A stretch of DNA of 64,000 bases from a virus. The notes under the pieces are model-generated. The model searched no databases, had not been told where the DNA came from, and saw nothing but the letters and a program-made list of their open reading frames with translations. Shown here in pieces: positions 6,001 through 45,086 of the stretch (position 1 is the stretch's first letter; every line of letters begins with the position of its first letter). The translations under genes and the position numbers were made by a program. Location: the IMG/VR virus record IMGVR_UViG_3300045988_072028, positions 1 through 64,000 of that record; one strand, written 5' to 3'.

Positions 6001-6459
6001 ACGAACTACCAATATCGGATGGATGCCAGAAGGTATCAGGATGAGGTTAATTACCAAATCCTTAGGACTACTGGATTCAATAAGGCATGGTTTTATAATG
6101 ATACGAACAACAGCGGTGAACTTCGGATGGTTATCGCCGACAAGAACGATATGAGCCAGCGGTTAAGGTATCCTATAACCAATGATGATAGCCGTGAGAT
6201 ACTGGTGACGGAGGTTGATCAGAAGATAAATATAAATGACTATTTTAACGAGGTCAAAGACGATACTAATAATCTCCCGGTATGGATCAAGGACGTGAAT
6301 GACATTGACCGGAAGATCGACCCTAGGGCTGTCGATTATCATCGGAGGTGGCGTGATCGTCTTCGTGGCGATTGGTTCTTGGCTAGGTTCGTGAATGACA
6401 TTGAGAGCAGGTTCAAGATGATAGTTCGTTGGTTTAGCAATGATGAGAAAGTTTATTAA
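1..6459 (+). CDS. giant virion/tail-associated structural protein, 5'-partial (>2141 aa); function not assignable
   Basis: The reading frame is open from nt 1, with no in-frame stop upstream of the TTG at 34, so the gene starts outside the window. TAA at 6457. YWTD-like motif GKVIYWTDG. Immediately precedes a tail-fibre gene. Confidence 0.85.
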   Translation, partial: QDLSPSEYSFALNATIEGDDGSQLKIQNEPSTLLCKRFDGYKVIGYKNDIAGDNTYFFLVNPDNNTSKITFMRSLDYVKTVEDQLAGSGKDIHRILGERLEESDGRFDEICDLMEVLIEDGTDDPCLNFSIHHPIFDIEIKDEKCGKVIYWTDGYNPQRYVMVDKALNPDDDGDFWYHYHGYKTCGDDKPIERCRLACEKLLVFPLLTAPCVEPEVVEFGGSLRAGTYQFCVALCDEFGIEKTGYCSLTNPIMIFDRQDIVIRDGLWGKSTNMGIRLTVSNIDKQVSHYKVGVIQNTVGYNGEQSPVLEYFIEGIHPITERTIYYLTDQYSERTTMEKLSKEIPVYKTARGMTSVGNRLLQYGLTVENEWNLQPVVNFLGHFVKWQTSIATENLYKDGVACSKYASFMRDEVYPLGIRFFTNTGYRTARFPLIPRPATREEMEVIVDEDGNSDDLSAASVLENNPQCAGNSRRHLWQFKNTAKIINDPSWGFDGFGGECKNQLDVKQLRYVEQEYATVGETQFVINTMGEDVTVDDAIDYIADNIENLCDIIGSNVGITDELCAAISLPEDQDGIKAPDFPSGCDDIERIETRTILDKNSLVDSRIDFTYKLASDYVETEPTTLIQSNAESQRKFSVLCDFDNYSSGGKNIIDLVQEWLDGQDEDKFPSDIDSSALVLCQDMSNVRQLYDEGICTNGCSVGDPYVNPTINDVQLPTFQGGRSLGKCTFLFQGDGWEGKKHTETMLDILMDSMKKYFPQYESQFGIENAMCLFGDGDNSKFNTGISTDWEDRVSVQNDIDAKTNWFGRSNLTYFKFYPHVSSYARWVELDYEKYISGLSDPDNGIMYIEMMGNYNYPIGDSSSYNKVRITFFSDKEGTVAPNPLANDAKKGVIVNYVDHKIFMMPKYLFWNDDKTTFHKIYVCIEPAVCVFFTGFAMRQDMKELAGFYTAGTAIFPAPFCFGIRPLEVKYVFFFTKELKLRRFVTYEAKCISCGDKPADCAPRPYQYGDFGYWESTNKYPANFELYDSSKIGISSGGSKRKDIIDSLTKYYGSPKSVEGKSYFTGNGGNAEYPNTSTTFCQRPIRHYKFPDNSVAPFMGNPSQLTGQYGVDSYIYPMGVMLDDDIVNEFLDIAVENGLIDKARRDSIIGYELYRGDRTLDKSVIGTGLAYDMFKYDDPDGSANLYPNYPYNDLSDDMYIYKDINREKFITHPFNRKGNIWYSFLSPDIAFNKPDAPTECLVDGYQLGKSSGIFREVEDHPKWTILGGKAYSMATSLATVEAMANLISAIAEYTYQSASQQYVGGGVFFLANPVGIALTAIRLATGIAKATAQSVVDIGKYRYQWLTALIDRGPRRNYAYYYTSVAHYNLFYQKIGASELRGLSTAKYIKSGLYPVTDISSQGGTVGGKPIIINNLDREHSLFMSFGMDKYMLEYPELVSSYDTSRIQDECNIRNDEVAGMTPHFMTRESFVSCPYMRIKKYSPAQYGQIEDIRWVSLGGCGLMDENKRKPVFGGDVFISRFSLKRKMPMFYLTQFGQGDMIPFPYYDYRNIGYPRYFVNYDTGEDYLNKTDTDTGSLYSFPSRKSAYEMVCKTGDMYLSGRFFLYFYGIPQFLVESEINCNFRIAGPEPYEGFYPEVGDYISWTQERNVPISRDNVFKISPVYKNRFTLGGRSLPETYDSNFWDCAYQRPNGVIWSTADVSENGMTDPWLSYKPMDYHEFKTSFGKLISMKGIESDQILARFENQVGLYNAIDVLAERISPENSELGTGGLFASRGIEYNNTTLGYSGTQSRDMISCEFGHFWVDLRRGQVFKVDSNGRNLTEVTPGLRNWFKEHLQMKIIRSRIYNADTDAELSYYDIDNKFFGIGLSMGWDNRFKRVLITKKDYIPVGNPSEYQFRGGRFYRNGQAVELQDTSHFTDVSFTVGYNCLKGEWKSYLSYTPDYYIEHQHYFQSGKNYSSESQEIGLWSHGLTNQSYQVFYGKLYPFVIEVPVREQYVNKILTNYQYRMDARRYQDEVNYQILRTTGFNKAWFYNDTNNSGELRMVIADKNDMSQRLRYPITNDDSREILVTEVDQKININDYFNEVKDDTNNLPVWIKDVNDIDRKIDPRAVDYHRRWRDRLRGDWFLARFVNDIESRFKMIVRWFSNDEKVY

Positions 6460-6472
6460 TTTATTAACATAT

Positions 6473-6483
6473 GGGGGGGGGGG
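6473..6483. repeat. G11 homopolymer tract upstream of tail-fibre gene 1
   Basis: Counted directly: g at 6473-6483. The tract is 13 nt after the upstream TAA and 34 nt before ATG 6518. Confidence 0.95.
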
Positions 6484-8794: not shown

Positions 8795-8823
8795 CCGCAC
8801 GTCTCACGTCGGGATTTTTTTTT
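8767..8823 (+). terminator. intrinsic terminator-like structure after fibre 1
   Basis: Inner hairpin cgtcggc/gccg(c)acg at 8784-8801. It is enclosed by cccga (8768-8772) pairing with tcggg (8809-8813). A T9 run follows at 8815-8823. Confidence 0.55.
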
Positions 8824-8846
8824 GTGTGATGATTAAATAACAAGAT

Positions 8847-9212: not shown

Positions 9213-9327
9213 TTGACACGCTAGCGCCCTCAATGGGGCGGGATTTGGTCTTATGTTGATATCATGGGCGGGTATGTGATGTGGATCATGTTCCCGTCTC
9301 GTGTTTTAATATCCGTTTGATTGTGCG

Positions 9328-9335
9328 TATATTTG
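9328..9335 (+). promoter_or_regulatory. Bacteroidota-type -7 promoter box TATATTTG
   Basis: Matches the TAnnTTTG consensus, 16 nt upstream of ATG 9352. Confidence 0.55.
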
Positions 9336-9351
9336 TGGAAAAACGTGATTT

Positions 9352-13570: not shown

Positions 13571-13660
13571 CATCTTGTAATTATTTGAGATATGTAAAAT
13601 TTCAAGATTTTATTATCTATAATATAGGCTATTATATTTTGCAATAATATTAGTATTGCT

Positions 13661-13703
13661 TATATTTGTGCGCCTACCTACTCATCACGAGCGGATAGGC
13701 GCA
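13661..13703 (+). promoter_or_regulatory. TATATTTG box fused to a long hairpin (8-bp outer stem TGCGCCTA/TAGGCGCA, apical loop ATCAC)
   Basis: Box at 13661-13668. Stem 13669-13676/13696-13703, inner pairs cc/gg and ctc/gag. Followed by the T-rich tttattaattt. Confidence 0.5.
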
Positions 13704-13732
13704 TTTATTAATTTAAAACTTTTAGTAAAGGT

Positions 13733-14485: not shown

Positions 14486-14492
14486 TATTAAA

Positions 14493-14532
14493 GAGACTCA
14501 TCGTTATATAAATGGTGAGTCTCCGTTTTTTT
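14493..14532 (+). terminator. intrinsic terminator
   Basis: 8-bp stem gagactca/tgagtctc (14493-14500/14516-14523) followed by cg and a T7 run. Confidence 0.75.
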
Positions 14533-14536
14533 AGAT

Positions 14537-14544
14537 TATCTTTG
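14537..14544 (+). promoter_or_regulatory. -7 box TATCTTTG with conserved leader TGTCAGAACGA
   Basis: TAnnTTTG consensus 23 nt upstream of ATG 14568. Box plus leader are nearly identical to 26224 and 38428. Confidence 0.6.
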
Positions 14545-14567
14545 TGTCAGAACGAAATTAATTAGAC

Positions 14568-23300: not shown

Positions 23301-25182
23301 AGATAGGTTAAATACCAACGATAACGTCTTAAATAACATCAGAGATACTATTGATGATATCATAGATATAAACATTAATGGTCTTGATCAGGATCAGGTT
23401 AAGGGGGCTATACAGACTTACAATGATCTTATGAATGATATTGACAACGGGAATGAAGTTGATCAGGATAAACTTAATGAGGCTATTGATATTATCAATA
23501 ATTATTCTGATGATCCTCTTCTTCAATTCGTGGAATGGATGAGGCTGTATAATAATGGAAGTATGGTTGTCAAGGATTACGATAAGTCTATACCTATGGG
23601 TGATGTTCTCACGGAGAGCGAACCCGGGACATCCACCGGCAGGACGGAGGTCAACGCCGCCCAGAATCCGGTGGTGTTGATGGCTCAAAAGAGGGAGATC
23701 GGTGGGGTCATGTATTATGAGGTAGGAGGAATGAGGCTTGACAGGTTTATGGCGGGATCCGGGCTTAAGGCTCTCGTCACGCCCGGTGAATATATTATGG
23801 ATGATAAGATGGTGATGGATTTTACTGATGGGACGAACATGTTCAGCGTTATTGAGTCCAAGAATCATTCAAGATGGATGATTAGTGAGGATGACGCTCA
23901 GGCTTTCGAGAACGCTACCGGTGTCATACTGGGGCGGCAGACCGCCTTATCGACCTCCAATTGGTTCATGGTGTATCGCAAGGGGCGGGATGGGTCTATT
24001 GTCCCTTATTATACGGGTGATACGTTTGGATCTAACAACGAGTCGGTGAATCAGGAAGCAGCGGCTAGCCTCCGCAAGGGTGATATGGTAAGGTTTAAGA
24101 TGGATATGTCAGATCCATATACCAAGGAATTGTATGATAAATACAATAGCCTTAACGCCGTTGACCCTAATTCTGATGAGACTAAGTCGGCTTACAGAGA
24201 GCTGGTTGATAATATGGTTATTAAGATCGTGGATAGTGATGGTAATTTTGTCTCGGTGCTAAAAGCCAATGATCCAGACTCAAAAGGGAGTAACGCTGAT
24301 TTAAGGAGTATGGCCTTTGAGTTGTATAGGGATAATATAGGATCTGTTACTGGCGAGATTGATATACCGTTCGTAGGTACAGTTACCAGTGTTTTGCCGG
24401 GAAGACCTAATTTTAGCATAAGTGATGATAATGGGACGTTGATGGTATCCGAGAATGATTTTACCAACGAGACGGTTGGTAAAGTCGAGAGCGTAGGATA
24501 TATAGAGAATGGGGAGGTTACGATGAAGGATAATATTAGGTATAACATATTCCCGTTCTGTACGGCTATCGTCAGGGACAAATATGGTAATTATAAAAAT
24601 TCACGTATCCCGGTCGTAGCTATAAAGACAGGAAATGGAAGAAATTACCTGTACCCCGTAAGATTGAAAAATCAGGATATATCGTCATTTTCATCCATGA
24701 TCGGATCGATGGTCGATAGGATTACGGAGGGTCTAGGCGGAGGCGTAAGTATTGATGATATAATGGATCTTAATAACGCTATAGCCAGATCCGGGTTGGA
24801 TAATAAGACATATATGATTCCGCTGGCGGGAGATGTGGATGTTATCAAAGGCCGGCTTGAAGCTGTCAAGGAAGCGGTTAGCAGGATGCCTATGACCGCT
24901 GATGTAAGAGGATGGATAGGTGATTCCAGAACTAAGGAGGATATTTTGATGAATGATGTTACGATCAACATTGATCTTAACAACGATCCTTTCATAGCTC
25001 CTAAGTTTAGGATGAGTATCAAGGAGAACAAGGTATCCAAGGAGGAGACGGAAGTCTCGTTCCCTAACCTGCCGGATCTGCCATCGGAGTTCGCCTCGCC
25101 TACGAAGGCGGCCGAGGACAAGTCTTTGGTTTCCGACGGAAATGTCGTATCTGGAGAAAAAGAGGCGGAGGATCCTTGCTAG
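20305..25182 (+). CDS. giant membrane-interacting internal/ejection-type protein (about 1625 aa); start uncertain
   Basis: Glycine-rich hydrophobic segments: AGKTALYGLGGVIQPFYGIYAGV, FLSGLAFTAGAMLSSAVYSGAGL, ANVGILSLSNIAMFG, IGIGMIIGSFMGG. A long acidic, helical-looking region follows. TAG at 25180. Confidence 0.85.
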   Translation: METMEIYNNTSNGKDLAEKYRYPTINVDNIKAIGTDPYDMPDRDLPPVLDPYSASERSKSQIPSLSERIKNTVKTNYYDNMKHMSPLGYMASDQSYKGRFNLTGPEISLEDSRYRLSSGTWIPKYESYIPGVDNDTRLSKTQSRTEKWMRGLGKLAGKTALYGLGGVIQPFYGIYAGVSKGNFNAVFDNDFTRWLDDQDKKMDYGLAHYYNREERDMNFLQSMTTANFWSNDFLSGLAFTAGAMLSSAVYSGAGLMNLARTGARAGVALARIGKAASDTKKAFGAYLRAARIGQRVGKGLDAALFLGTSTSWEASVEARSMLMEAEENFRQSYRNAYGREVPYEELMRFRADNANAANAVFAANVGILSLSNIAMFGDMFGMELGVDKFIKRNIFGVGAERMDNGALRAITPKKWQKIAGNTFNIIKRPVSEGLFEEGLQGVSSKSAEDWVESRYNPMAIRQNIGYMEAIKNGFKETYGSNQGWKEIGIGMIIGSFMGGKTIGGIKEWSQDMSRNKGMVEAYNTNAGALTTAAIRAIRGSMALNAQLSGLSTDNNADDIPNSRIVDKTFSDAVFNRLRYDQGMGMLDDTKENFKTVIESIPNSDIASDMNMTDEQVNEYKSNLISEFNKKVDNFTMASRFADSLTDGISNRSFNTYISNMAYNGLEAKDNLDDIANQLGRIYNTDIGPALDIYSRLNPDSSRDLEKLRKLTDDIRKMENNVLKLQQSVTSKEALESDKVKFAKENDRLLKLTEDRIALERRLATLVNSETDISKLLLNRNESRISAADLMAAYETIVGFENAVSIRGVDNHKEAMALLSEYRHNLVAYKNINESLRRMRDRRFIRAQERGFMKILSNAWGKTYEEDDSKYDFRNTDDPDANSLYANDQAIDKAYQDGLIGEDEAFMFKTYNHMIARSMENEIKADEGGIVENVPDNEDIINPSDDRINNIAIKIWNGNEDILSPRERQIYDNNKDRINDLVNGFGDNPIARLNKIRSMIDRLNTNDNVLNNIRDTIDDIIDININGLDQDQVKGAIQTYNDLMNDIDNGNEVDQDKLNEAIDIINNYSDDPLLQFVEWMRLYNNGSMVVKDYDKSIPMGDVLTESEPGTSTGRTEVNAAQNPVVLMAQKREIGGVMYYEVGGMRLDRFMAGSGLKALVTPGEYIMDDKMVMDFTDGTNMFSVIESKNHSRWMISEDDAQAFENATGVILGRQTALSTSNWFMVYRKGRDGSIVPYYTGDTFGSNNESVNQEAAASLRKGDMVRFKMDMSDPYTKELYDKYNSLNAVDPNSDETKSAYRELVDNMVIKIVDSDGNFVSVLKANDPDSKGSNADLRSMAFELYRDNIGSVTGEIDIPFVGTVTSVLPGRPNFSISDDNGTLMVSENDFTNETVGKVESVGYIENGEVTMKDNIRYNIFPFCTAIVRDKYGNYKNSRIPVVAIKTGNGRNYLYPVRLKNQDISSFSSMIGSMVDRITEGLGGGVSIDDIMDLNNAIARSGLDNKTYMIPLAGDVDVIKGRLEAVKEAVSRMPMTADVRGWIGDSRTKEDILMNDVTINIDLNNDPFIAPKFRMSIKENKVSKEETEVSFPNLPDLPSEFASPTKAAEDKSLVSDGNVVSGEKEAEDPC

Positions 25183-25198
25183 ATAAAATATCTTGACT

Positions 25199-25290
25199 TA
25201 TCTTTGCGGCGTCAGTCCATCACCTGACGAGTAAGATATTTAAAAGTTGGTCCCTGTCGGGTGTGTGATGGCCCCGGTGGGGACTTTTTT
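25199..25290 (+). promoter_or_regulatory. twin-hairpin leader element, copy 1 (-7 box, hairpin with loop TCCATCAC, hairpin with loop TGTGATGG, T6)
   Basis: Box 25199-25206. HP1 25210-25215/25224-25229. HP2 25250-25261/25273-25284. T6 25285-25290. ATG 25296. Confidence 0.7.
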
Positions 25291-25295
25291 AGTAG

Positions 25296-25895
25296 ATGCA
25301 ACTAGACGCTTTTTTACACCGGAAAATTATGCAAGACCTACGCATCCAGCGAGTGAAGGTCTTGATGATGTTATACACCAGTAACTATTTTGTCAAGGTC
25401 AGACAAAAGCAGTTGCTTGATCATACATACTCATTAAGCAGGGATCAGGCTTTTGATTATATGACTGAGTTCAATAAAAGGCTTAGTGATAAGGTTGGTA
25501 TAGAATGTACGATGGATATTCTTCTGCCTACCGATGATGATAACGCTAATATCATAATCGAGTACAATGGCATCATTAAGAAGTTGATGAGGGAAGCCGA
25601 GAAGCTGGAACTTGATACTGATGCTATCAAAGCCATGATGCGTGATCTTCTTGATGAGTTGAAGGATGATATTGATCTTAATATCCTGATATTTGACGTA
25701 ACCCAGTTACTTATAAAATATAATCTATTTAGGTTGGATGCCATAACCGAGCAGGAGTTCAAGAACTCTTTTGTCAGAATGGATAGTAGGAATATGGAGA
25801 TAAAGAAACTAACTTTATCTGATATCAAGGAGGTGGTAACAATGATAGAGGATAGATATAGCTATGCTTTATATATGACAGAGGAATGTGACTGA
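25296..25895 (+). CDS. hypothetical protein (199 aa; start uncertain)
   Basis: ORF directly after the leader element, ending in TGA at 25893. No motif recognised. Confidence 0.6.
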   Translation: MQLDAFLHRKIMQDLRIQRVKVLMMLYTSNYFVKVRQKQLLDHTYSLSRDQAFDYMTEFNKRLSDKVGIECTMDILLPTDDDNANIIIEYNGIIKKLMREAEKLELDTDAIKAMMRDLLDELKDDIDLNILIFDVTQLLIKYNLFRLDAITEQEFKNSFVRMDSRNMEIKKLTLSDIKEVVTMIEDRYSYALYMTEECD

Positions 25896-26189
25896 TTACA
25901 TTTTGGGCTTTAGTAAACAGTGATCAGTTTATGCAAGGTATTGATTATGAGATTTTAGCCACAAATGGTGAAAATACGACAGTTTTATGGAGCTAACACC
26001 GTCTATGTGACCCATAAAGGATTTCAGTGGATTGTGTCGTAGATCGGATAAAGATATTTTTCGCTAAACGATAAATTCCATTTTTTTTGTAATTTAGGAT
26101 TGAGTTTTTGCCTGTCCGTGAGGATCGGCAAAACGATTTGTACTTTTTCAGTAGAAACATAAGATTTGTTACAATGTTGTTATTTTGGT

Positions 26190-32074: not shown

Positions 32075-32083
32075 CCCCCCCCC
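32075..32083. repeat. C9 homopolymer tract upstream of tail-fibre gene 2
   Basis: Counted directly. It ends 28 nt upstream of the -7 box at 32112. Confidence 0.95.
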
Positions 32084-35106: not shown

Positions 35107-35115
35107 CCCCCCCCC
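35107..35115. repeat. C9 homopolymer tract upstream of the BACON-like gene
   Basis: Counted directly. It ends 27 nt upstream of the -7 box at 35143. Confidence 0.95.
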
Positions 35116-35845: not shown

Positions 35846-35868
35846 TCAGTTTCTTTTCGCTTACTCAG

Positions 35869-35907
35869 ACCCCGATCGACTAAAGCCGGTTGGGGTTTAT
35901 TTGTTTT
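35869..35907 (+). terminator. terminator-like hairpin
   Basis: acccc(g)atcg/cggt(t)ggggt followed by tttatttgtttt. Confidence 0.5.
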
Positions 35908-35909
35908 GC

Positions 35910-35917
35910 TATCTTTG
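35910..35917 (+). promoter_or_regulatory. -7 box TATCTTTG
   Basis: 24 nt upstream of ATG 35942. Confidence 0.55.
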
Positions 35918-35941
35918 CAATAGAACAAAAATAATACAACT

Positions 35942-36925: not shown

Positions 36926-36945
36926 TGATATTATCCTTTGTTTTT
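36920..36945 (+). terminator. intrinsic terminator overlapping the stop codon
   Basis: Perfect 7-bp stem ggataat/attatcc with loop gat, followed by tttgttttt. Confidence 0.7.
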
Positions 36946-36959
36946 ACAAATTTTGTAAT

Positions 36960-37054
36960 TATTTTTGTGCCGGATGTCCATCACCATCCAAATCCTGCTA
37001 ATTTATTATACGAGAGGCGGTGTATGTGATGGTACGCCAGCCTCTCTTATTTTT
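36960..37054 (+). promoter_or_regulatory. twin-hairpin leader element, copy 2
   Basis: Box TATTTTTG 36960-36967. HP1 ggatg/catcc 36972-36976/36985-36989 with loop TCCATCAC. HP2 37012-37024/37033-37046 with loop TGTGATGG. T-rich 37047-37054. ATG 37058. Confidence 0.7.
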
Positions 37055-37057
37055 ATC

Positions 37058-37339
37058 ATGGAGAAGAAATTAAATGTTTTCGATGTTAAGATTCCTGATG
37101 GCGGACAAATCAGTTGTCTACAGATTGATAAGGTTACTTATTTTGATCTTGAGTCTATATGTAAGTTATGTTTTGATACATACGATCTACATGACGTGGC
37201 TGACACTAAGGTGATGAGCGAGTTCCTTCACCGTGAGGGCGGTCGTTTCTGGACTACCTTGGATGGCGTAAGGCAATTATATAGGAGGGTCGAGTGCAAG
37301 ATGTGTTTCGAGGTAATTGAAAAGCTAAGGGAGTTATGA
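37058..37339 (+). CDS. hypothetical protein (93 aa)
   Basis: ATG 37058 is preferred. The longer ORF from 36965 would run through the leader hairpins. ATGA-type overlap with the next gene. Confidence 0.65.
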   Translation: MEKKLNVFDVKIPDGGQISCLQIDKVTYFDLESICKLCFDTYDLHDVADTKVMSEFLHREGGRFWTTLDGVRQLYRRVECKMCFEVIEKLREL

Positions 37340-38387: not shown

Positions 38388-38392
38388 GTTGG

Positions 38393-38424
38393 GCCTGTCT
38401 GGTTGTTAGCTAGACAGGCTTTTT
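38393..38424 (+). terminator. intrinsic terminator
   Basis: 8-bp stem gcctgtct/agacaggc (38393-38400/38412-38419) followed by T5. Confidence 0.75.
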
Positions 38425-38427
38425 GTT

Positions 38428-38435
38428 TATCTTTG
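38428..38435 (+). promoter_or_regulatory. -7 box TATCTTTG with conserved leader TCAAAAACATTTAGTT
   Basis: 16 nt upstream of ATG 38452. Confidence 0.6.
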
Positions 38436-38451
38436 TCAAAAACATTTAGTT

Positions 38452-41400
38452 ATGTCAAGTTGTGTCATTAAAAGAAATAAGGAGGGTAAGATAACCCGTG
38501 TCTTGACCCCTTCCGGAGAGGTATCCACCTTGTTCGATAAGATAGCGGGTATAGCCGCCGTAAGTGACCTTAATAAGGCCGCTGAGGCTTATATGACTAT
38601 TTATAACGATAAGTTCAGATCCAAGTTCGGAGACTGGACGAGATCCGTGCCAAGGAATAAGGAGGCGGCCAGATCCATAAGCGCCAGACTTAGCTCCAGC
38701 GAGTGGGGGCAACTTATGTCAGCCAAGGTCCTGTCCGCCATAAGCGATATGGATGCCCCGGCGTTGGCCAGAAGTCTCGGGAATAGCGACAATGTCGTGG
38801 CTTATCTTACCTCCGGAGAGGTAGGTGATGTCAATGATATGGCTGTGGTAGATACATCTACGGTACAGGAGGTGGATCTGGATTCCATAAACGAGGATAA
38901 TATTGGCGATACGATACTGAAAGAGGCGTCATGGGATGATATAAGGGCTATCAGGGAGAATATAGACATTAAGGAGACAGCCCGTATGTTATGGAAGGCC
39001 GTGGAAAGCGCTTTTACCGGGCAACGACCTAATATTAGGGTGAAAGGCGGAAGTATAGACGGGGAGATCATATTTTCTGGCAATGTCTTGCCGTTAAATA
39101 ATATTGAGAATTATACTCCTCCATCTTCAAGATTGGTATATGATTCCGGTGAGCCTCGCCTGTTCTTTAGATCGGATGACGGCAAGATACACGAATCTTA
39201 CGCCAACGCCATAAAAGGATCGTCCGGTGGGCGGGTCGAGGCCGGGTTCTTGGCCGGCAGTGTCGAGGAGAGCGACGTCCCGTCCGGTACGGCTGATATC
39301 TCCTTTGGCTCTTCCTCCATAACCCTTAATAACAGTGGGTCATTCATCCCGATCCTTGGTATTAGCTCAAACTCAGATGTAAGCACTCGTGGAGGGTTTG
39401 TTAATTACCTTATCAAGAAAGGTCTGTTGAGCGGGGAGCGTATAAGGCTAGGGGATAGGTATTATCTTACCGGTGCCGGCAATTCTGATGGTCTTAAGAT
39501 CTATAACGCTATGGATGCCTTGTCTAGGCTAAGGAATAGGTTTGGAAGTCAGTCCTCCGAAATGAACGTATTGGGTTCTATAGGTTTTGATACGGAGGTA
39601 AGTAATGATCTTGATCTTATCACGACATCAGGGGATAAGGTTACGGTAAGCAGATCGGAGATCAAGGGCATGTTAAGGCAAGGTAAGTTTGAGGAGCTTA
39701 ATAATAAGTATGATGGGTTCATGGAGCTAGCCTTGTCGTTGATGATGGAGGATAACGCCTTGTACGGAAGTAATGTCCGTGGGGTTATCGAGAATGAGAA
39801 GGCGGAGGATCTCCAGAATAGGACTGATATCACCAATATCTTATCCACGTTAGGTATCCGTGTGATGGGTATGTCTGAGTATATGGATAAGTATAAGATG
39901 CGTAATGGTGTCGAGCCTTCGGCTAGGGCATTGTCCGATATGGCCAATGGGGTTATCGCTTTGGCCGAGGGAGCTACGGTAGAGGATCTTAATGAGGAGG
40001 TGGCTCATTTCTTGATCGATACTTACCGTAACCAACAGGAGATTGACGAGGTTCTGGACTCTGTTGTCGGCACGCCATTATGGAATCAATTCGCCGGTCG
40101 TTACTATGAGGTGTATGGGAAGGAATACCAAGGGGAGGAACTGGATCGGATGGTGAAGCGGGAAATCCTAGGCAAGACGTTGGCCCAGCGGTTCGTCCCG
40201 GGTATGGAGCAGGCGGTGGAGGATCTGGCCTCGTCCGAGGATGCCCAGCTCTCCTTGTTTGGCAGGATAATCCGGGCTATACGGAATTTCTTCTCTACTC
40301 AAAGATCAGACTTGAATAAGGTTCTTGATAGGATAAAGGAGTCGGCGTTAGCTGATGATCCAAGCGCCTTTGACGTGCTTCTGTTAAAGGATAGCGACCA
40401 TCTCATGTACTCATTATCGGATGTTGATGTGGCTAATAAGCTGATCAAGAACGGTAGGTCATTGGAAAGACTATATACCAGATTGCAGAGGATGAGGTCA
40501 AGCCAAAGCCAGAGGATCGGGGAAAGCATCTCCCTTCTACGTGATATAGGCGAGAAGGTAAGACAAGTCGGGGGTGAGCTAAATAAGAATAACAACCTAT
40601 TATCCACCAAGAGCGTTATAGCTACAGCCAAGGCTGAGGTGGAGTATTTGGTCACTGTCGCCAGCAGCTTACGTAAGAGCGGGAAAGGATTGGATTATGA
40701 GACGATGCAGGTTATCGATAACGTATATGGGGAGATCGTGCCACTTGTCAGGAACCTTCGTGGATTCGTCAATAATCAGGCGGCTGATTATTATGGCAGC
40801 AATAAGGTTGGCATGGTAGAGGATATGGATGATATATTACGTATGGCTGAGACATCCATGTCAGATATAAACGCCCTTAAAAGTGATCGTAACGAGGATT
40901 GGCTGGATGGACAGCTTCGGATGTTCAATATCCCGGAAAGGTACTGGAATGGGATAAAGAAGTTGATAGATAACATCCATAAGGATATCAATGTCATGTC
41001 CCGGTTTTTCGGGACGTTAGAACATAGCGGTAACGCTATCCTAGGCATGTTAGGCCAACGTCTAGCCAAGGCTTATAACGACGCTCATGTTGAGGGTGTG
41101 GCTAATATCAATAAGATGACTAAGATGATGAAAGAGCGTGGATGGGGGATAAAGGATAATGAGGATCTTATACAGAAGATAAACGGTAAGAACTCGGATT
41201 ACCTTGACTCGTCCCGTGATTTCGCCAAATACGATTTACTGCTCAGGACCGAGCAGGCTAAGGCTATTATCGATATATATGATCTTAAGAATGTTACGGG
41301 TAAGACCGAGAAACAACTTATCGACCTTCTTCTATCCGATAGAGGCCTTAAGGTGAAGACCCGTGACGACATAGTAGGATATGACGGGGATAAGCCTATT

Positions 41401-44400
41401 ACGAAGGCCGTGTATCATGTATTCAAACCTACCATCCAGAATTTTGATATCTCGGACATGACGTTCGAGGATCAGCAACGGTATCTGGATACGATAAATA
41501 GGTGGTTGGATGAGAACCAAGAGAAACCTATGGTGCAGGCTTATTACGATAAGATCGAGAAAGTTAATAAGAAGGTCGAGGAAAGACTGGGTCGTAGGGT
41601 ATCGCAAGCCACGTCCGATTTCATGACCCGTATCCGTAGAAGCCGGTATGTGGCTATGGATAAGTTTATTAAGAACAAGAAGGTCGATTGGGACGCTTTC
41701 CAATCTGACCCTATAGCTTGGAGATCTTATCTGGATATCCTTCGTGATAGGGCTATAGCCAAGAGCGAGTGGTATTCCGACGGGACACCAAAGGAAGCGG
41801 GGTCCGAGGCGTTGATGATGTCCGAGGAGATCAAGGCATGGGACGAGGCGTGGGCCGAGGAGTTCGGGAATACCAACGAGGGTCGTAAGGCTTCAGCCGA
41901 GTTTAAGGAGATACTGCGTGGGATAGAGCGGTCCGAGGGCGGTAAGGCAGCATTCGAGTTCCTGCTAGCCGGTGGTCATCTTGGCTTCTCCAAGGATATG
42001 TGGGGATCCGAGGAGGGTGATTATTACGAGAATCTGGTTGATAAGATCACGGAGCAATCTGTATCATCATCAAGGATAGAGAAGGTAGAGGAGGCGATGG
42101 CAACAATAAATGAGATTAACGATCAGTTAAGACCTTTGCTTATTCAGTACCGGGACAGTACCAGATATGGCGAGTATGATTTCGATCGTCTTCGTGGATC
42201 ATCGTCATTAAGGAAGATAAACGAGCTATACGACCGTCTGGCCGAGGCCAAGAGTGTTATTAACGCCGCCGCTTCCGCTGAGGATATTGAGATGAATATG
42301 CCCGATACGGTGGAGAGTGGCGTTACAGATTCCTACCGTAATGCGTTAAGGGATGCCGTGACATACGACAAGGGAATGGATGAGATTAAATTCGCCAAGG
42401 AACATATGTCTGCCCGCTCCCGGAGTCAGGTAGATAGGATGGCCGCCAAGCTGTCACAGAAGAATCCATCATGGACATCCATGGAGACAACGTTCCTTAG
42501 AAAAAAATACGGTCCTGATTTCAGTGATAAGCTGGCTAATGATATAGCTATGGGTAAGGCTAATAGTATACTTATTGAGTATGCCAGAACCCGGCTATAT
42601 CCTTATATGAGAAAATACTCTCCCAAAGGGTATTCTGATTTTGTCAGGAAGATAAATAACGGTACGTATAAGGTGTCGGATTTTTTTGATGCCATGGAAA
42701 GCGGTATATCAAAGGAAGAAAGCGTGTCCCGTTTCGGCTTCGATATTAATATGATTGATTTGTCGATCAACAACCAATGGTTAGATGAGGCTGATTTCGA
42801 GAGTTCCTTCCGGAATCCTAATTATAATCCCGATCTAGGTTATGGATATCATACGCCTAGATTTGATAAGTACAAGAATGAGGCTTTCTTCAAAAAATAC
42901 GGTATTACCAAGGAAGGAGAGGAGGCCACGATCAACAAGGATAAGTGGGAGATGAGGAAGGAATTGCTTAACATAAGCCGTAAGGCTATGGAGGATTATG
43001 ATGAGCGTTTCAGGAATATCTACCAGATACCACAGATATCCAAGGGCGGAGTGGAGAGGATGGTGCAGGCCGGGGTTGACCCGAAGGCGGCCATCGGAAA
43101 CGCCGTACGTGACATCGTTGGCGAGAGGGTTGATGATCCCATACATGGTCAAGGACAAGACCTAGGAGGGCTTGATGAGAACGATAACAAATATCGCATG
43201 ATCCCCAAGTACTATCTGAGCAAGCTAGAGAATGCCGATGACGTATCCCATGACTTCGCGTACTCCTATTCTATGCTATCCCTTCAGGCGGCATCTTATA
43301 AGTATAAGAGAGCTGCTTTGGATGATGTTATGGGATATAGGAATATGATGCTTGAGACACAATATGATGGGGGAAAGAATCCAGAAGCCACTCATGCCTA
43401 CAGGATGTTTCAGGACTGGGTTAACGCCAGTATCTATGACGTTAGGATAAACAATAAGCGGACTGAATGGAATATAGGCAATTATAAGGTCGATCTTAAT
43501 AAGCTGGCCCTTATGTTTACCAAATTTGTGTCCAAATCCAACTTAGGCTTCTCCCCGTTCGTGGCGGCTACCGGTGCCCTTACCGGGCAGGCCAACTTCC
43601 TTTTGGAAGGTATGGTAGGACAGTACATAAGCAAGGACTCCATGAAATACGCTTATGGAGAAGCTCAGAAACAGTTAAGTACGTACGTGTCTGAGATCGG
43701 GGACATAAATCGTACCAATAAGTTATATGTTGTCGGTGAGGCCCTAGGCGTATTCAACGTTCGTAACCGTGTAAGATCGGCGGCATATAACAAGATCTGG
43801 AGAACCTTATTCCGGGACCTGCCGTTTAAGATGATGGAGGTTTTGAACTCTCCTTTGGATCCGCAGGTTATTATCTCGGTGATGGATGACACCCGCTTGT
43901 ATGAGGGTCAGTTCTGGTCATATTCTAATTTCAAGGAGATGATGATGAAGGACAGGAATATGTCCGCTAATGAGGCTAAACGTGATTGGGAGCGTTTAAG
44001 GGATTATTCCATATGGAACTTAGTAAATGTCAAGGACGGGAAGATCGTGGCTAAAAACGAGGCTAATAAGGATATTATAGACCGATACATACCTACATTG
44101 TCCAGCAGGGTCAGGAGTATGGTGCAGATATGCGACGGCGCCCTGAACGAGCAGAACCGGGTGGGGGCTAGCCGGAACGCGATCCTTAACATGGTGCTTC
44201 CTCATCGTGGATGGTTTATATTGGCTGTGCAGCGGGCGTATAAGAAAGCCGGTTTCAATTTCCAGACCAACCAGTTCGAGGAAGGATATATGAGGACATT
44301 ATGGCGATTGGCGGGGAATGTCTATAATACGATGTCCGAGGGTCGTATGGGGGAGGCGTATGACGTGCTTAAAGAGGAATATGATAAGCTTACACCTTAT

Positions 44401-44898
44401 GAGCAGGTTAATATCAAGAGATCTATTATCAATGTGGCGGTATTCGCCACGATGATGGCTATAGGAAGGGCTTTGATGGGATATAGGGAGGATAATGAGG
44501 ATAGCTGGTTCGGGCAGTTCATTACCTATATCGGGTTCAGGACGATCAATGAGATCGCTTCCCAGACATCCCCGTTCATGGAGCTTAACGCCATAGATAT
44601 GCTGCAAGATCCGCTGGTTACCGCCCGAAAGTTAGGCGATCTCACCGATCCTCGAAACTGGGATCCGTTCGCTACCGTCCAGACCGGCGTGTATAAGGGA
44701 GAGAGCAAGCTATGGAGGCAGCTCATGAAATTCTCGTTCGGTAAGCAATGGTATAATATCAAGACGGCTAGGGATATTAAGCAGACATCCGACTACTGGT
44801 TGATGACCAACGGCATGACGATGGGATTCTTCTTAGGAGGCAGGGATAAGGACGAGTCCGGGGAGGACGCTAATTGGTACTTTGACAGGGGAAGATAA
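38452..44898 (+). CDS. giant virion protein (2148 aa), polyvalent/ejection-type; size is that of a crAss-like virion RNAP but no catalytic motif was seen
   Basis: Single uninterrupted ORF, the last large gene of the + block. Its N-terminal approx 60 aa are homologous to the 26250 product. I found no DxDxD motif by eye. Confidence 0.85.
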   Translation: MSSCVIKRNKEGKITRVLTPSGEVSTLFDKIAGIAAVSDLNKAAEAYMTIYNDKFRSKFGDWTRSVPRNKEAARSISARLSSSEWGQLMSAKVLSAISDMDAPALARSLGNSDNVVAYLTSGEVGDVNDMAVVDTSTVQEVDLDSINEDNIGDTILKEASWDDIRAIRENIDIKETARMLWKAVESAFTGQRPNIRVKGGSIDGEIIFSGNVLPLNNIENYTPPSSRLVYDSGEPRLFFRSDDGKIHESYANAIKGSSGGRVEAGFLAGSVEESDVPSGTADISFGSSSITLNNSGSFIPILGISSNSDVSTRGGFVNYLIKKGLLSGERIRLGDRYYLTGAGNSDGLKIYNAMDALSRLRNRFGSQSSEMNVLGSIGFDTEVSNDLDLITTSGDKVTVSRSEIKGMLRQGKFEELNNKYDGFMELALSLMMEDNALYGSNVRGVIENEKAEDLQNRTDITNILSTLGIRVMGMSEYMDKYKMRNGVEPSARALSDMANGVIALAEGATVEDLNEEVAHFLIDTYRNQQEIDEVLDSVVGTPLWNQFAGRYYEVYGKEYQGEELDRMVKREILGKTLAQRFVPGMEQAVEDLASSEDAQLSLFGRIIRAIRNFFSTQRSDLNKVLDRIKESALADDPSAFDVLLLKDSDHLMYSLSDVDVANKLIKNGRSLERLYTRLQRMRSSQSQRIGESISLLRDIGEKVRQVGGELNKNNNLLSTKSVIATAKAEVEYLVTVASSLRKSGKGLDYETMQVIDNVYGEIVPLVRNLRGFVNNQAADYYGSNKVGMVEDMDDILRMAETSMSDINALKSDRNEDWLDGQLRMFNIPERYWNGIKKLIDNIHKDINVMSRFFGTLEHSGNAILGMLGQRLAKAYNDAHVEGVANINKMTKMMKERGWGIKDNEDLIQKINGKNSDYLDSSRDFAKYDLLLRTEQAKAIIDIYDLKNVTGKTEKQLIDLLLSDRGLKVKTRDDIVGYDGDKPITKAVYHVFKPTIQNFDISDMTFEDQQRYLDTINRWLDENQEKPMVQAYYDKIEKVNKKVEERLGRRVSQATSDFMTRIRRSRYVAMDKFIKNKKVDWDAFQSDPIAWRSYLDILRDRAIAKSEWYSDGTPKEAGSEALMMSEEIKAWDEAWAEEFGNTNEGRKASAEFKEILRGIERSEGGKAAFEFLLAGGHLGFSKDMWGSEEGDYYENLVDKITEQSVSSSRIEKVEEAMATINEINDQLRPLLIQYRDSTRYGEYDFDRLRGSSSLRKINELYDRLAEAKSVINAAASAEDIEMNMPDTVESGVTDSYRNALRDAVTYDKGMDEIKFAKEHMSARSRSQVDRMAAKLSQKNPSWTSMETTFLRKKYGPDFSDKLANDIAMGKANSILIEYARTRLYPYMRKYSPKGYSDFVRKINNGTYKVSDFFDAMESGISKEESVSRFGFDINMIDLSINNQWLDEADFESSFRNPNYNPDLGYGYHTPRFDKYKNEAFFKKYGITKEGEEATINKDKWEMRKELLNISRKAMEDYDERFRNIYQIPQISKGGVERMVQAGVDPKAAIGNAVRDIVGERVDDPIHGQGQDLGGLDENDNKYRMIPKYYLSKLENADDVSHDFAYSYSMLSLQAASYKYKRAALDDVMGYRNMMLETQYDGGKNPEATHAYRMFQDWVNASIYDVRINNKRTEWNIGNYKVDLNKLALMFTKFVSKSNLGFSPFVAATGALTGQANFLLEGMVGQYISKDSMKYAYGEAQKQLSTYVSEIGDINRTNKLYVVGEALGVFNVRNRVRSAAYNKIWRTLFRDLPFKMMEVLNSPLDPQVIISVMDDTRLYEGQFWSYSNFKEMMMKDRNMSANEAKRDWERLRDYSIWNLVNVKDGKIVAKNEANKDIIDRYIPTLSSRVRSMVQICDGALNEQNRVGASRNAILNMVLPHRGWFILAVQRAYKKAGFNFQTNQFEEGYMRTLWRLAGNVYNTMSEGRMGEAYDVLKEEYDKLTPYEQVNIKRSIINVAVFATMMAIGRALMGYREDNEDSWFGQFITYIGFRTINEIASQTSPFMELNAIDMLQDPLVTARKLGDLTDPRNWDPFATVQTGVYKGESKLWRQLMKFSFGKQWYNIKTARDIKQTSDYWLMTNGMTMGFFLGGRDKDESGEDANWYFDRGR

Positions 44899-44955
44899 CC
44901 GATATAGTATGACAAAAAAAATAGCCAGTCAATTGTTTAAGACAATTTGATTGGC

Positions 44956-45081
44956 TATATTTGCATTATGAAACAATGAATGACGGGATCTCACTTCAAG
45001 GTCATTCAATGTGTAAGATATTTTTGGCTCATTAGGATTTGTCGAGGTGAGATCCGACATTTCCTTTTGAGCCTATTTTTT
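44956..45081 (+). promoter_or_regulatory. TATATTTG box plus about 120-nt structured leader upstream of the antirepressor-like gene
   Basis: Hairpin gaatgac/gtcattc (44978-44984/45001-45007). Its loop ggatctcac (44986-44994) is complementary to gtgagatcc (45047-45055). Outer stem ggctca/tgagcc (45026-45031/45068-45073) followed by a T run. Confidence 0.5.
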
Positions 45082-45086
45082 ATATT

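What the first reader, a model, noticed from the sequence alone, without database searches (positions are those of the whole stretch)
25199..25290. Twin-hairpin leader element, copy 1: identical mutually complementary loops with covarying stems
The element runs from a promoter box to a start codon:
- Bacteroidota-type -7 box TATCTTTG (25199-25206).
- Hairpin 1: stem CGTCAG/CTGACG, 8-nt loop TCCATCAC.
- About 20 nt of A/T spacer.
- Hairpin 2: roughly 12-bp stem at 25250-25261/25273-25284, loop containing TGTGATGG.
- A T6 run, then ATG 25296.

The same architecture recurs at 36960-37054. There the stem sequences are completely different (GGATG/CATCC and GAGAGGCGGTGTA/TACGCC-A-GCCTCTC), but both 8-nt loop sequences are identical. 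CCATCAC and GTGATGG are reverse complements, so the two loops could kiss or form an alternative helix.

Stem covariation with loop conservation is the classic signature of a selected RNA (or ssDNA) structure. The terminator-like second hairpin sits between a promoter and a start codon. That position suggests an attenuator or processive-antitermination site (put/nut-like), or a short sRNA of about 80 nt. I know of no described element with this arrangement.
Basis: seen in the sequence. Interest (0 to 1): 0.8.

Follow-up and report, generated by a model that had tools for sequence, protein, structure and literature searches.

The report
Kissing-loop twin-hairpin phage leader RNA
The finding is real: it is one member of a previously undescribed family of structured leader RNAs in phages of Bacteroidota, in which a promoter is followed by two hairpins whose loops base-pair with each other, the second hairpin looking like a transcription terminator placed just before an accessory gene.

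Summary
Observation confirmed and extended. Both copies (25199-25295, 36960-37057) exist as described. A covariance model built only from six unrelated viral contigs finds both (E 3e-9, 1e-4). Across 38 distinct sequences, 93% of stem cells pair, and 17 of 20 pairs in the two hairpins show compensatory changes. Hairpin 2 carries 106 G.U against 9 A.C cells, so the + strand RNA is the selected molecule.

The loop-loop pairing is also under selection. The window holds a third element (44956-45086) with different, 12-nt complementary loops. Relatives and cultured Flavobacterium phages carry further loop pairs. In four orthologous Flavobacterium-phage leaders, 3 of the 8 loop-loop pairs changed on both sides.

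Nothing matched in Rfam 15, in 185,579 bacterial and archaeal genomes, or in the searchable literature.

Each element sits between a Bacteroidota-type promoter and a start codon. There is no room for another promoter, and the downstream cargo genes vary.

Best reading: a promoter-proximal, kissing-loop leader or attenuator that yields a short RNA plus read-through mRNA. The structure is well supported; the function is inferred only. This is a new variant of a known kind, and it can be tested in culturable phages.

The parts
25175..25206 (+). Copy 1 promoter. It has a -33-like TTG (25175-25178, overlapping the end of the upstream ORF) and a -7 box TATCTTTG (25199-25206), 20 nt apart.
   Evidence: Read. 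The motif and spacing match the Bacteroidota TTTG-N19-21-TAnnTTTG consensus (established knowledge). The box sits at a fixed distance from hairpin 1 in all orthologues. Some orthologues have TTCG instead.
25210..25229 (+). Copy 1 hairpin 1: 6-bp stem CGUCAG/CUGACG with 8-nt loop UCCAUCAC (25216-25223). It is predicted to lie at the very 5' end of the transcript.
   Evidence: Fold. Helix 1 is 100% paired, with 3 of 4 pairs compensatory. The loop core CCAUCAC is conserved in 79 of 79 orthologues fetched independently of the loop. The only core change is C->U, which keeps a G.U pair.
25230..25248 (+). Copy 1 A/U-rich linker carrying the semi-conserved motif UAAGAUAU (25232-25239).
   Evidence: The motif is shared with the third window element (45014-45021), with class D, and with type-3 elements in unrelated phages.
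25249..25290 (+). Copy 1 hairpin 2: terminator-like 13+2-bp stem with loop UGUGAUGG (25264-25271), followed by U6 (25285-25290).
   Evidence: Fold. Of the 16 pairs, 14 are compensatory and 93% of cells pair. G.U-rich: 106 G.U against 9 A.C cells. The simple terminator scan did not flag it because of the bulge.
25296..25895 (+). Cargo gene of copy 1: a 199-aa ORF with no family match.
36937..36967 (+). Copy 2 promoter: TTTG (36937-36940), 19 nt, then TATTTTTG (36960-36967).
   Evidence: Orthologues have TACATTTG or TAGTTTTG at the same place.
36972..36989 (+). Copy 2 hairpin 1: GGAUG/CAUCC with loop UCCAUCAC (36977-36984).
   Evidence: Orthologues use GCAUG/CAUGC with wobble variants.
37012..37055 (+). 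Copy 2 hairpin 2: GAGAGGCGGUGUA / UACGCC-A-GCCUCUC with loop UGUGAUGG (37025-37032), followed by the U-rich tail UUAUUUUUA (37047-37055).
37058..37339 (+). Cargo gene of copy 2: a 93-aa ORF, first of a block of small genes. The leader upstream of its ATG is non-coding.
   Evidence: In 10 of 17 distinct orthologous leaders there are in-frame stops, and frames shift with U-tract length.
44956..45086 (+). Third twin-hairpin leader (class B).
- -7 box TATATTTG (44956-44963).
- Hairpin 1 at 44974-45011, with loop segment GGAUCUCACUUC (44986-44997).
- UAAGAUAU (45014-45021).
- Hairpin 2 at 45026-45073, with apex GAGGUGAGAUCC (45044-45055). This is 12-nt complementary to the hairpin 1 loop, with one U.G.
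- U-rich tail, then ATG 45087 of an Ant-like gene.
   Evidence: z = -4.65. The loop duplex is -22.3 kcal/mol. Orthologues L240 and L241 carry U->C, which makes the helix 12/12 Watson-Crick. The leader is 95-98% identical where the CDS is 73-75% identical. The cargo gene matches anti-repressor Ant PHROGs.
44923..44956 (+). Terminator-like hairpin directly upstream of the class B promoter. It implies that the Ant-like gene must be transcribed from the element's own promoter, through hairpin 2.
   Evidence: Read by eye. It was not folded separately.

Best explanation
It is a cis-encoded, structured 5' leader RNA, one member of a family found in phages of Bacteroidota.

Shown by sequence analysis:
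- A host-type promoter motif (TTTG-N19-20-TAnnTTTG) is followed at fixed distance by hairpin 1, which is therefore predicted to lie at the very 5' end of the transcript.
- Next come an A/U-rich linker, often carrying UAAGAUAU, and a long GC-based hairpin 2 with a U-rich tail that looks like the genuine terminators of the same genome.
- The start codon of an accessory gene follows 5-40 nt later.
- The loop of hairpin 1 and the apex of hairpin 2 are complementary (7-12 nt) and covary, so they form an intramolecular kissing-loop (pseudoknot-like) contact.

Inferred function:
- Host RNA polymerase starting at the promoter meets the terminator-like hairpin 2 after about 75-120 nt.
- Part of the transcripts end there as a short, compact, end-protected RNA. 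The rest read through and become the mRNA of the cargo gene.
- The element therefore acts as a promoter-proximal attenuator or gate.
- The loop-loop contact sets the efficiency of that gate, or the stability of the leader. Because each leader carries its own loop 'address', it does so without cross-talk to other leaders in the same genome.
- The conserved leader with variable cargo also behaves as a portable expression cassette.
For: Family membership:
- A CM built only from six non-window sequences finds both window copies full length (52 and 32.5 bits).

Stems:
- 92.9% of cells pair, against 62% in shuffles and 38-48% when slid.
- 17 of 20 pairs in the two hairpins show double changes.

Strand:
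- Hairpin 2 is 93% paired on the + strand and 76% on the - strand.
- Single-base variants in stems and loops are wobble-compatible.

Loop-loop pairing:
- Five loop classes each have their own complementary pair. Cognate duplexes are -9 to -22 kcal/mol; non-cognate are +1.5 to -9.
- In a MAFFT alignment of four cultured Flavobacterium-phage orthologues, the 8-bp loop-loop helix is 100% paired and 3 of its pairs changed on both sides.
- The first loop nucleotide (unpaired U) varies freely (U->C in 11 loci), while the 7 pairing positions do not.

Leader rather than separate gene:
- The ATG lies 5-40 nt after the U-tract, with no room for a promoter.
- Type-3 and class B elements have a terminator upstream of their own promoter.
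- The leader is non-coding.

Terminator-like hairpin 2:
- Its tails (UUUUUUAG, UUAUUUUU, UAUUUUUU, U7 in hattifnatt) resemble those of gene-end terminators in the same window, which are followed by the -7 box.

Specificity:
- 0 architecture hits in 341 promoter-like boxes of bacterial control loci, against 36 distinct hits in 1310 viral boxes.
- No true copy in 185,579 genomes.
Against: - No transcript data exist. The start site, termination at hairpin 2 and read-through are all inferred.
- In most classes the loop-loop helix does not compete with the terminator stem. There is therefore no classical antiterminator alternative, and the direction of any effect on termination is unknown.
- Several copy-1 orthologues have a weak tail (CUCUUUAUAUUAUG) or a TTCG -7 box.
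- The simple terminator scan did not flag hairpin 2 of copies 1 and 2.
- Class A loops are identical in human-gut crAss-like phages and in aquatic Flavobacteriia-type siphophages. Cis pairing alone does not explain this; it hints at an unidentified trans partner.
Confidence: 0.5

Rival explanations
1. It is a stand-alone small RNA gene. The terminated ~75-120-nt RNA is the functional product and acts in trans. With two mutually complementary loops it could do either of two things:
- bind the loops of nascent leaders with the same 'address', giving RNA-only feedback on termination. This would resemble antisense-RNA attenuation in pT181/pIP501 or the P4 CI RNA.
For: - It has the anatomy of an sRNA gene: promoter, 5' hairpin and a strong terminator-like 3' hairpin.
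- Orthogonal loop classes occur within one genome, and the two class A copies of the window share identical loops. Specificity of this kind matters mainly for trans interactions.
- Class A loop sequence is conserved across very different phages.
- Intergenic regions are among the most highly transcribed parts of crAss-like phage phi14:2 (bioRxiv 10.1101/2020.03.07.982082).
Against: - The cargo gene starts 5-40 nt after the U-tract and has no promoter of its own, so read-through must occur.
- A 20-45-nt flexible linker favours cis pairing over trans pairing.
- No other complementary targets are enriched in the window.
- This reading is compatible with the best explanation rather than exclusive of it.
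Confidence: 0.2
2. It is a constitutive 5'-UTR module with no regulated termination. The 5'-terminal hairpin and the kissing contact make a compact, nuclease-resistant leader. That leader stabilises the mRNA and insulates the unstructured, SD-less translation start region from whatever cargo gene follows. Hairpin 2 mainly terminates transcripts coming from the upstream operon.
For: - Hairpin 1 starts 3-6 nt after the -7 box in classes A, D, E and F (10 nt in class B), so it would leave almost no 5' overhang.
- Copies 1 and 2 have no other terminator between the upstream stop codon and hairpin 2.
- Cargo genes are swapped behind an almost invariant leader.
- The layout is analogous to the ompA 5' UTR, which has two hairpins and an AU-rich linker (own knowledge).
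Against: - It does not explain why the same RNA polymerase would pass a strong terminator-like hairpin with a U7 tail.
- It does not explain why loop complementarity, rather than just two stable hairpins, is maintained by compensatory changes.
Confidence: 0.2
3. It is a DNA-level element. The two loop sequences would form an inverted-repeat operator for a dimeric DNA-binding protein. Alternatively, the hairpins would extrude as cruciform or ssDNA structures, as in N4-type hairpin promoters, replication signals or invertase sites.
For: - CCATCAC and GTGATGG are an inverted repeat at a fixed 56-nt span.
- On opposite strands both hairpins would display the same loop.
- crAss-like phages carry a virion RNA polymerase.
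Against: - There is strong strand asymmetry: 106 G.U against 9 A.C cells.
- Both loops carry an extra 5' U on the same strand, which is not part of the inverted repeat.
- Loop variants are C->U or U->C wobble-type changes on the + strand.
- Several different 'operators' in one genome would need several proteins.
- The family also occurs in Flavobacterium siphophages that lack a virion RNAP.
- No inverted variant was seen in 79 + about 70 + 62 orthologous loci.
- Early promoters of phi14:2 vRNAP show no common motif.
Confidence: 0.04
4. It is a tRNA-sensing (T-box-like) leader, for class A only. Loop 1 displays two His codons (CAU-CAC). Loop 2 (UGUGAU..) mimics a tRNA-His anticodon loop and would compete with the tRNA.
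For: Only the sequence coincidence in the class A loops. There is also a noise-level Rfam hit to His_leader (12 bits, E 8.8).
Against: - The other classes have unrelated loops.
- There is no T-box or other Rfam match.
- No tRNA gene was available to test the idea.
Confidence: 0.03

Closest known systems
Promoter-proximal terminators of lambdoid late operons (pR'-tR', 6S RNA, released by Q)
   Same: A constitutive promoter is followed within about 100-200 nt by an intrinsic terminator. The default product is therefore a short RNA, and downstream genes need read-through.
   Different: - No Q-like protein, QBE or sigma-dependent pause element was identified here.
- The leader here is defined by two hairpins with complementary loops.
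- Several copies with different loop pairs occur per genome, in front of accessory genes rather than a single late operon.
Kissing-loop RNA control systems (ColE1 RNA I/RNA II, R1 CopA/CopT, pT181 and pIP501 antisense-RNA attenuation)
   Same: - There are 7-8-nt loop-loop helices between stable hairpins.
- In pT181 and pIP501 the contact decides whether a leader terminator acts.
- The terminator loop takes part in the pairing.
   Different: Those are antisense pairs transcribed from opposite strands, and they act in trans. Here both loops lie on the same sense transcript, 40-60 nt apart.
   Same: One RNA carries two loops complementary to each other, and the loop pairs covary between related phages.
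   Different: - In pRNA the pairing is intermolecular, builds a ring on the portal, and serves DNA packaging.
- Here the RNA is a promoter-proximal leader present in several copies.
- There is no link to packaging genes, and cis pairing is sterically possible.
P4 CI RNA and P1/P7 c4 RNA (Rfam C4)
   Same: These are phage leader-encoded small RNAs whose loops pair with complementary sequences in the same transcript, controlling premature termination or Ant expression. One window element likewise precedes an Ant-like gene.
   Different: - No sequence or structure match (Rfam).
- Those RNAs are RNase P-processed cloverleaf-like molecules whose targets lie outside the RNA.
PeSL promoter/stem-loop cassettes of T4-like phages (PMC2839356, PMC4122927)
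   Same: Both are conserved composite promoter-plus-stem-loop cassettes in front of variable, mostly unknown ORFs. The cassette is more conserved than the cargo, which is consistent with modular shuffling.
   Different: - PeSLs have one stem-loop, lying just upstream of a sigma70 early promoter in the PST phage pair.
- No loop-loop complementarity is described for them.
- Their hosts are Proteobacteria and cyanobacteria.
NusG-paralogue leaders (Bacteroides UpxY/ops, PMC11685472; Bacillus LoaP)
   Same: These are leader regions in the same host phylum, where hairpins in the nascent RNA and downstream termination or pausing control operon read-through.
   Different: They need a locus-specific NusG paralogue and an ops DNA element. 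Neither was identified here, and no kissing loops are described there.

Membership tests
Any curated RNA family (Rfam 15, 4227 models) | Score at or above the family's gathering threshold | tested here: not met
   There were 0 hits in the window at gathering thresholds. Permissive scans of copy 1 and of two type-3 loci gave only noise: His_leader at 12 bits against a 49-bit cut-off, and 6A RNA elsewhere.
Intrinsic-terminator attenuator (leader) | GC-rich hairpin followed directly by a U-tract, located between promoter and start codon | tested here: met
   Folds and sequence. The tails are U6, UUAUUUUU and UAUUUUUU. The position relative to the TAnnTTTG box and the ATG is fixed. The simple consensus scan missed copies 1 and 2 because of bulges.
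Intrinsic-terminator attenuator (leader) | Mutually exclusive antiterminator structure competing with the terminator stem | tested here: not met
   The MFE and centroid structures keep both hairpins. The conserved long-range pairing involves the loops, not the stem arms. The one exception is a single base pair of the apical stem in class B.
Intrinsic-terminator attenuator (leader) | Termination and regulated read-through in vivo or in vitro | not testable with these tools
   This needs Term-seq, Northern blots or in vitro transcription.
Kissing-loop (loop-loop pseudoknot) RNA | Watson-Crick complementarity between two hairpin loops, maintained by covariation | tested here: met
   There are five loop classes with cognate-only complementarity. 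Three of 8 loop-loop pairs are compensatory in a MAFFT alignment of orthologues. Wobble-compatible single changes are also seen.
Kissing-loop (loop-loop pseudoknot) RNA | Physical formation of the loop-loop helix (cis or trans) | not testable with these tools
   This needs chemical probing, native gels or a solved structure.
C4 / P4 CI antisense RNA | Match to the Rfam C4 model; cloverleaf-like fold | tested here: not met
   No hit.
T-box leader | Stem I specifier loop, T-box sequence and antiterminator bulge (Rfam T-box) | tested here: not met
   No hit. Only class A carries His-codon-like loop letters.
put / nut processive antitermination sites | Two non-terminator stem-loops acting on RNAP (put), or boxA plus a boxB hairpin bound by N (nut), with terminators further downstream | tested here: inconclusive
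   No sequence model was available. The anatomy differs: hairpin 2 carries a U-tract, and loop sequences differ between family members. Function was not testable.
PeSL-type mobile regulatory cassette | Conserved promoter plus stem-loop cassette bordering variable ORFs | tested here: met
   The same leader is followed by different genes. The leader is 95-98% identical where the CDS is 73-75% identical.
PeSL-type mobile regulatory cassette | T4-type sigma70 early promoter with a single stem-loop (upstream of the promoter in the PST pair read here) | tested here: not met
   The promoter here is of the Bacteroidota TAnnTTTG type. There are two hairpins, both downstream of the promoter (PMC4122927 read).
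Bacteroidota sigma-A promoter | TTTG at -33 and TAnnTTTG at -7, 19-21 nt apart | tested here: met
   Copy 1: cTTG-N20-TATCTTTG. Copy 2: TTTG-N19-TATTTTTG. The same box begins ordinary short leaders elsewhere in the window. Activity was not tested.

The most novel reading that the evidence does not exclude
The leaders could form a set of RNA-only, self-addressed switches.
- Each promoter-proximal terminator would be gated by a kissing contact with its own 5' hairpin.
- The abundant terminated RNA, which carries both loops, would feed back in trans on nascent leaders that share the same loop 'address'.
- This would time or limit a pulse of accessory or anti-defence gene expression without any protein regulator.
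- That would be a new class of orthogonal riboregulators, native to Bacteroidota phages including abundant human-gut crAss-like phages.
Probability: 0.2. Interest if true: 0.85.

Novelty: new variant of a known kind. Interest (0 to 1): 0.72.

Why it matters
- Very little is known about how crAss-like phages, and Bacteroidota phages in general, control their genes. No structured regulatory RNA of theirs is in Rfam.
- This family has strong covariation for two helices plus a tertiary loop-loop helix.
- It occurs in abundant human-gut phages (hundreds of IMG/VR contigs) and in 46 cultured Flavobacterium phage genome records, so it can be tested at once.
- If the kissing contact gates a terminator, it gives a compact, protein-free and naturally orthogonal set of expression-control parts for Bacteroides and Flavobacterium engineering.
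- The conserved-leader, variable-cargo pattern also marks hot spots where accessory genes (Ant-like, methyltransferase, small ORFs) are exchanged.

Tried and rejected
- **Rfam.** Gathering and permissive scans gave nothing.
- **tRNA/tmRNA.** ARAGORN found none in the window or in 60 loci, so the tRNA-His idea could not be tested.
- **Host origin.** A scan of 185,579 genomes for promoter plus both loops gave 51 hits. All were coding or chance matches, for example a conserved Flavobacterium gene.
- **BLAST to annotated phages.** The window region matched only three unannotated fragments. The type-3 element matched only AT-rich noise.
- **Loose descriptor scan.** A 7-mer inverted repeat with 4-bp flanking stems was no better than shuffles (68+45 hits against 57-97), so I abandoned it for a promoter-anchored scan.
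- **Simple terminator scan.** It missed hairpin 2 of copies 1 and 2.
- **Coding explanation.** Rejected, because the leaders contain in-frame stops.
- **DNA inversion switch.** No inverted arrangement was seen in any orthologue.
- **Second promoter in the linker.** Only class B has a consensus box there, so this was rejected as a general feature.
- **uORF from the AUG in loop 2.** Its length and frame are not conserved, and other classes lack an AUG.
- **Other cultured phages.** Bacteroides phage B40-8 (78 boxes) and the first 9 kb of phi14:2 have no such element.
- **Literature.** Searches found no description.

Full report
**1.

- Copy 1 and copy 2 are at the stated coordinates.
- The composite pattern TCCATCAC-N-TGTGATGG occurs twice in the window, with the same 56-nt span. 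It never occurs in 100 dinucleotide shuffles.
- Each copy lies 9 nt downstream of a TAnnTTTG box. Each box has a TTG/TTTG 19-20 nt further up.
- Each copy folds into two hairpins on the + strand (z -2.8 and -4.4).
- Each is followed within 5-12 nt by the ATG of a small ORF of unknown function.
- The window is the structural arm of a large crAss-like phage. It encodes giant virion proteins and tail proteins. Close relatives are IMG/VR contigs of 80-160 kb.

**2. It is a conserved family, not a local repeat**

- An exact-pattern scan of viral contigs returned about 85 orthologues of both copies.
- Copy-2 orthologues keep the loops but use other stems: GCAUG/CAUGC and GGGAUACCGGUC/GAUCGGCAUCCC.
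- Scans that excluded these two lineages found 'type-3' elements in six unrelated small viral contigs.
  - They have the same -7 box, the same two loops, again different stems, an extra covarying middle hairpin, and a U-rich tail.
  - One of these contigs encodes a tape-measure protein closest to those of Polaribacter and Flavobacterium siphophages.
- A covariance model built only from the six type-3 sequences finds window copy 1 at 52 bits (E 3e-9) and copy 2 at 32.5 bits (E 1e-4). Both matches are full length, and nothing else in the window is found.
- On the resulting alignment of 38 distinct sequences:
  - 92.9% of cells pair, against 62% in column shuffles and 38-48% with slid partners.
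  - 3 of 4 pairs in hairpin 1 show changes on both sides.
  - 14 of 16 pairs in hairpin 2 show changes on both sides.
  - Caveat: this alignment is fitted to the model.
- Hairpin 2 holds 106 G.U cells against 9 A.C cells. It is therefore 93% paired on the + strand but only 76% on the other strand. The selected molecule is the + strand RNA.
- The leader is not coding. In 10 of 17 distinct copy-2 orthologues there are in-frame stops upstream of the ATG, and the frame shifts with U-tract length.

**3. The loops pair with each other**

Retrieving copies 1 and 2 by an exact loop pattern makes loop invariance circular. I therefore re-fetched orthologues through flanking proteins.

- Copy 1: 79 of 79 loci carry the leader.
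- Copy 2: about 70 of 80 loci carry it.
- The first loop nucleotide, which is outside the complementary 7-mer, changes U->C in 11 loci.
- The 7-mer core changes only twice. Both changes are C->U opposite G, which keeps a wobble pair.
- Loop 2 is invariant.

Further family members carry other loop pairs.

- **Class B (in the window, 44956-45086).**
  - It has the same layout: a TATATTTG box, hairpin 1, UAAGAUAU, hairpin 2, a U-rich tail, then the ATG of an Ant-like gene.
  - Its loops are different: GGAUCUCACUUC and GAGGUGAGAUCC. They are complementary over 12 nt with one U.G.
  - Two orthologues carry U->C, which makes the helix fully Watson-Crick.
- **Class D (in close relatives).** A promoter-anchored scan found loops UCCGUUAUU/AAUAACGGA.
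- **Classes E and F (cultured phage).** Flavobacterium phage vB_FspS_hattifnatt9-1 has two more: GUGAGACG/CGUCUCAC and GCUUCGAC/GUCGAAGC.
- **Scan control.** The same scan gave 0 hits in 341 promoter-like boxes of bacterial control loci, against 36 distinct hits in 1310 viral boxes.
- **Duplex energies.** Cognate loop duplexes are -9 to -22 kcal/mol. Non-cognate ones are +1.5 to -9.
- **Compensatory changes among orthologues.** Class E is present in 46 cultured Flavobacterium phage genome records.
  - In a plain MAFFT alignment of four distinct orthologues, the 8-bp loop-loop helix is 100% paired.
  - 3 of its pairs changed on both sides: A-U->G-C, G-C->A-U and C-G->A-U.

This is direct covariation for a kissing-loop, pseudoknot-like contact.

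**4. Context**

- Ordinary gene junctions in this window run terminator, then TATCTTTG, then about 25 nt, then ATG (14486-14567, 35846-35941, 38388-38451).
- The twin-hairpin elements have the reverse order: promoter, hairpin 1, terminator-like hairpin 2, ATG. There is no room for another promoter.
- Class B and the type-3 elements have a terminator upstream of their own promoter. Their cargo gene can therefore only be transcribed through hairpin 2. The element is a leader, whatever else it is.
- Cargo genes are diverse:
  - unknown small ORFs;
  - Ant/KilA-like proteins;
  - a DNA methyltransferase;
  - an AAA/helicase-like protein (assigned by eye, not family-scanned);
  - a helicase and the primase region in the Flavobacterium phage.
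- The same leader is followed by different genes in close relatives.
- The class B leader stays 95-98% identical where the CDS has dropped to 73-75%.
- No copy was found in representative genomes of 185,579 bacterial and archaeal species.
- Nothing matches in Rfam 15, and literature searches found no description.

**5. Mechanism**

Shown:
- a host-type promoter motif;
- a + strand RNA with two covarying hairpins and a covarying loop-loop helix;
- terminator-like features of hairpin 2;
- a leader position in front of variable cargo.

Inferred:
- Transcription by host RNA polymerase. Middle and late genes of crAss-like phi14:2 are transcribed by host RNAP.
- Partial termination at hairpin 2, giving a short compact RNA.
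- Read-through giving the mRNA.
- The kissing contact tuning that gate, or the stability of the leader.

The contact does not compete with the terminator stem. This is therefore not a classical antiterminator switch, and the sign of the effect cannot be predicted.

Two facts hint at a trans component, either the short RNA itself or an unknown partner:
- Several orthogonal loop pairs co-exist in one genome.
- Class A loops are identical in gut crAss-like phages and in aquatic siphophages.

DNA-level readings (operator, cruciform, N4-like hairpin promoter, invertase site) are disfavoured by five observations:
- the strand asymmetry;
- the extra 5' U of both loops on the same strand;
- the wobble-type variants;
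- the multiplicity of loop pairs;
- the absence of inverted variants, and the presence of the family in phages that lack a virion RNAP.

**6. Comparison and verdict**

- It works most like a promoter-proximal terminator leader (lambda pR'-tR'/6S), combined with a kissing-loop contact of the kind used by plasmid antisense systems. Here the contact is within one sense transcript.
- Its loop covariation recalls phi29 pRNA.
- Its conserved-cassette, variable-cargo behaviour recalls the PeSL cassettes of T4-like phages.
- It is a member of none of these families.
- I rate it a real, previously undescribed structured RNA family: a new variant of a known kind. The structure is well supported, the function is open, and it is readily testable in cultured Flavobacterium phages.

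Noticed in passing
window 13655-13732 (+): A TATATTTG box is followed at once by a single 9-10-bp hairpin (GCGCCUA../..UAGGCGC) whose apex is CUC-AUCAC-GAG. A U-rich tail follows, then the ATG of an amidase-like gene (13733). It looks like a one-hairpin relative or remnant of the leader. The covariance model does not detect it.
   Followed up: partly
window 6473-6483, 32075-32083, 35107-35115: Intergenic homopolymer tracts (G11, C9, C9) lie immediately before TATTTG, TATATTT and ATATTTTATGG. They are possible slippage-prone promoter spacers, which could give phase variation. The fetched loci did not cover them, so length variation could not be checked.
   Followed up: partly
window 9213-9351 and 8795-8846 (+): Terminator-like hairpins here carry GUGAUG at the apex (9276) or just after the U-tract (8826), the same hexamer as loop 2. 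CATCAC on the + strand is found in non-coding DNA only in three promoter-proximal hairpin loops (13683, 25218, 36979).
   Followed up: partly
L008:2302-2420, L016, L017 (~3240), L050, L064, L075; corresponds to window 25896-26165: Close relatives carry a fourth leader (class D, loops UCCGUUAUU/AAUAACGGA) about 650 nt downstream of copy 1, in front of different genes. The window has an unrelated 270-nt spacer there. This is a hot spot of cargo exchange.
   Followed up: partly
copy-1 orthologues, e.g. L044, L013, L356, L383: A sizeable minority of orthologues have TATCTTCG instead of TATCTTTG in the -7 box. The promoter may be weakened in some lineages, while the RNA structure stays intact.
   Followed up: no
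L279, L290, L315, L338 (copy-2 cargo homologues): In about 10 of 80 relatives, the 93-aa gene homologue sits directly behind another ORF with no leader. The same cargo can therefore exist with or without the cassette.
   Followed up: no
window 34-6459 and 38452-44898 (+): Two giant ORFs (2141 and 2148 aa) match 'virion structural protein' PHROGs. One of them is probably the crAss-type virion RNA polymerase. Copy 2 heads the small-gene block just upstream of the second one.
   Followed up: no
L434 (Cellulophaga phage phi14:2, 2905-4601): There is a long region from which all former ORF annotations were removed. The phi14:2 paper reports that intergenic regions there are transcribed more highly than most genes. 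My scan found no twin-hairpin leader in the first 9 kb.
   Followed up: partly
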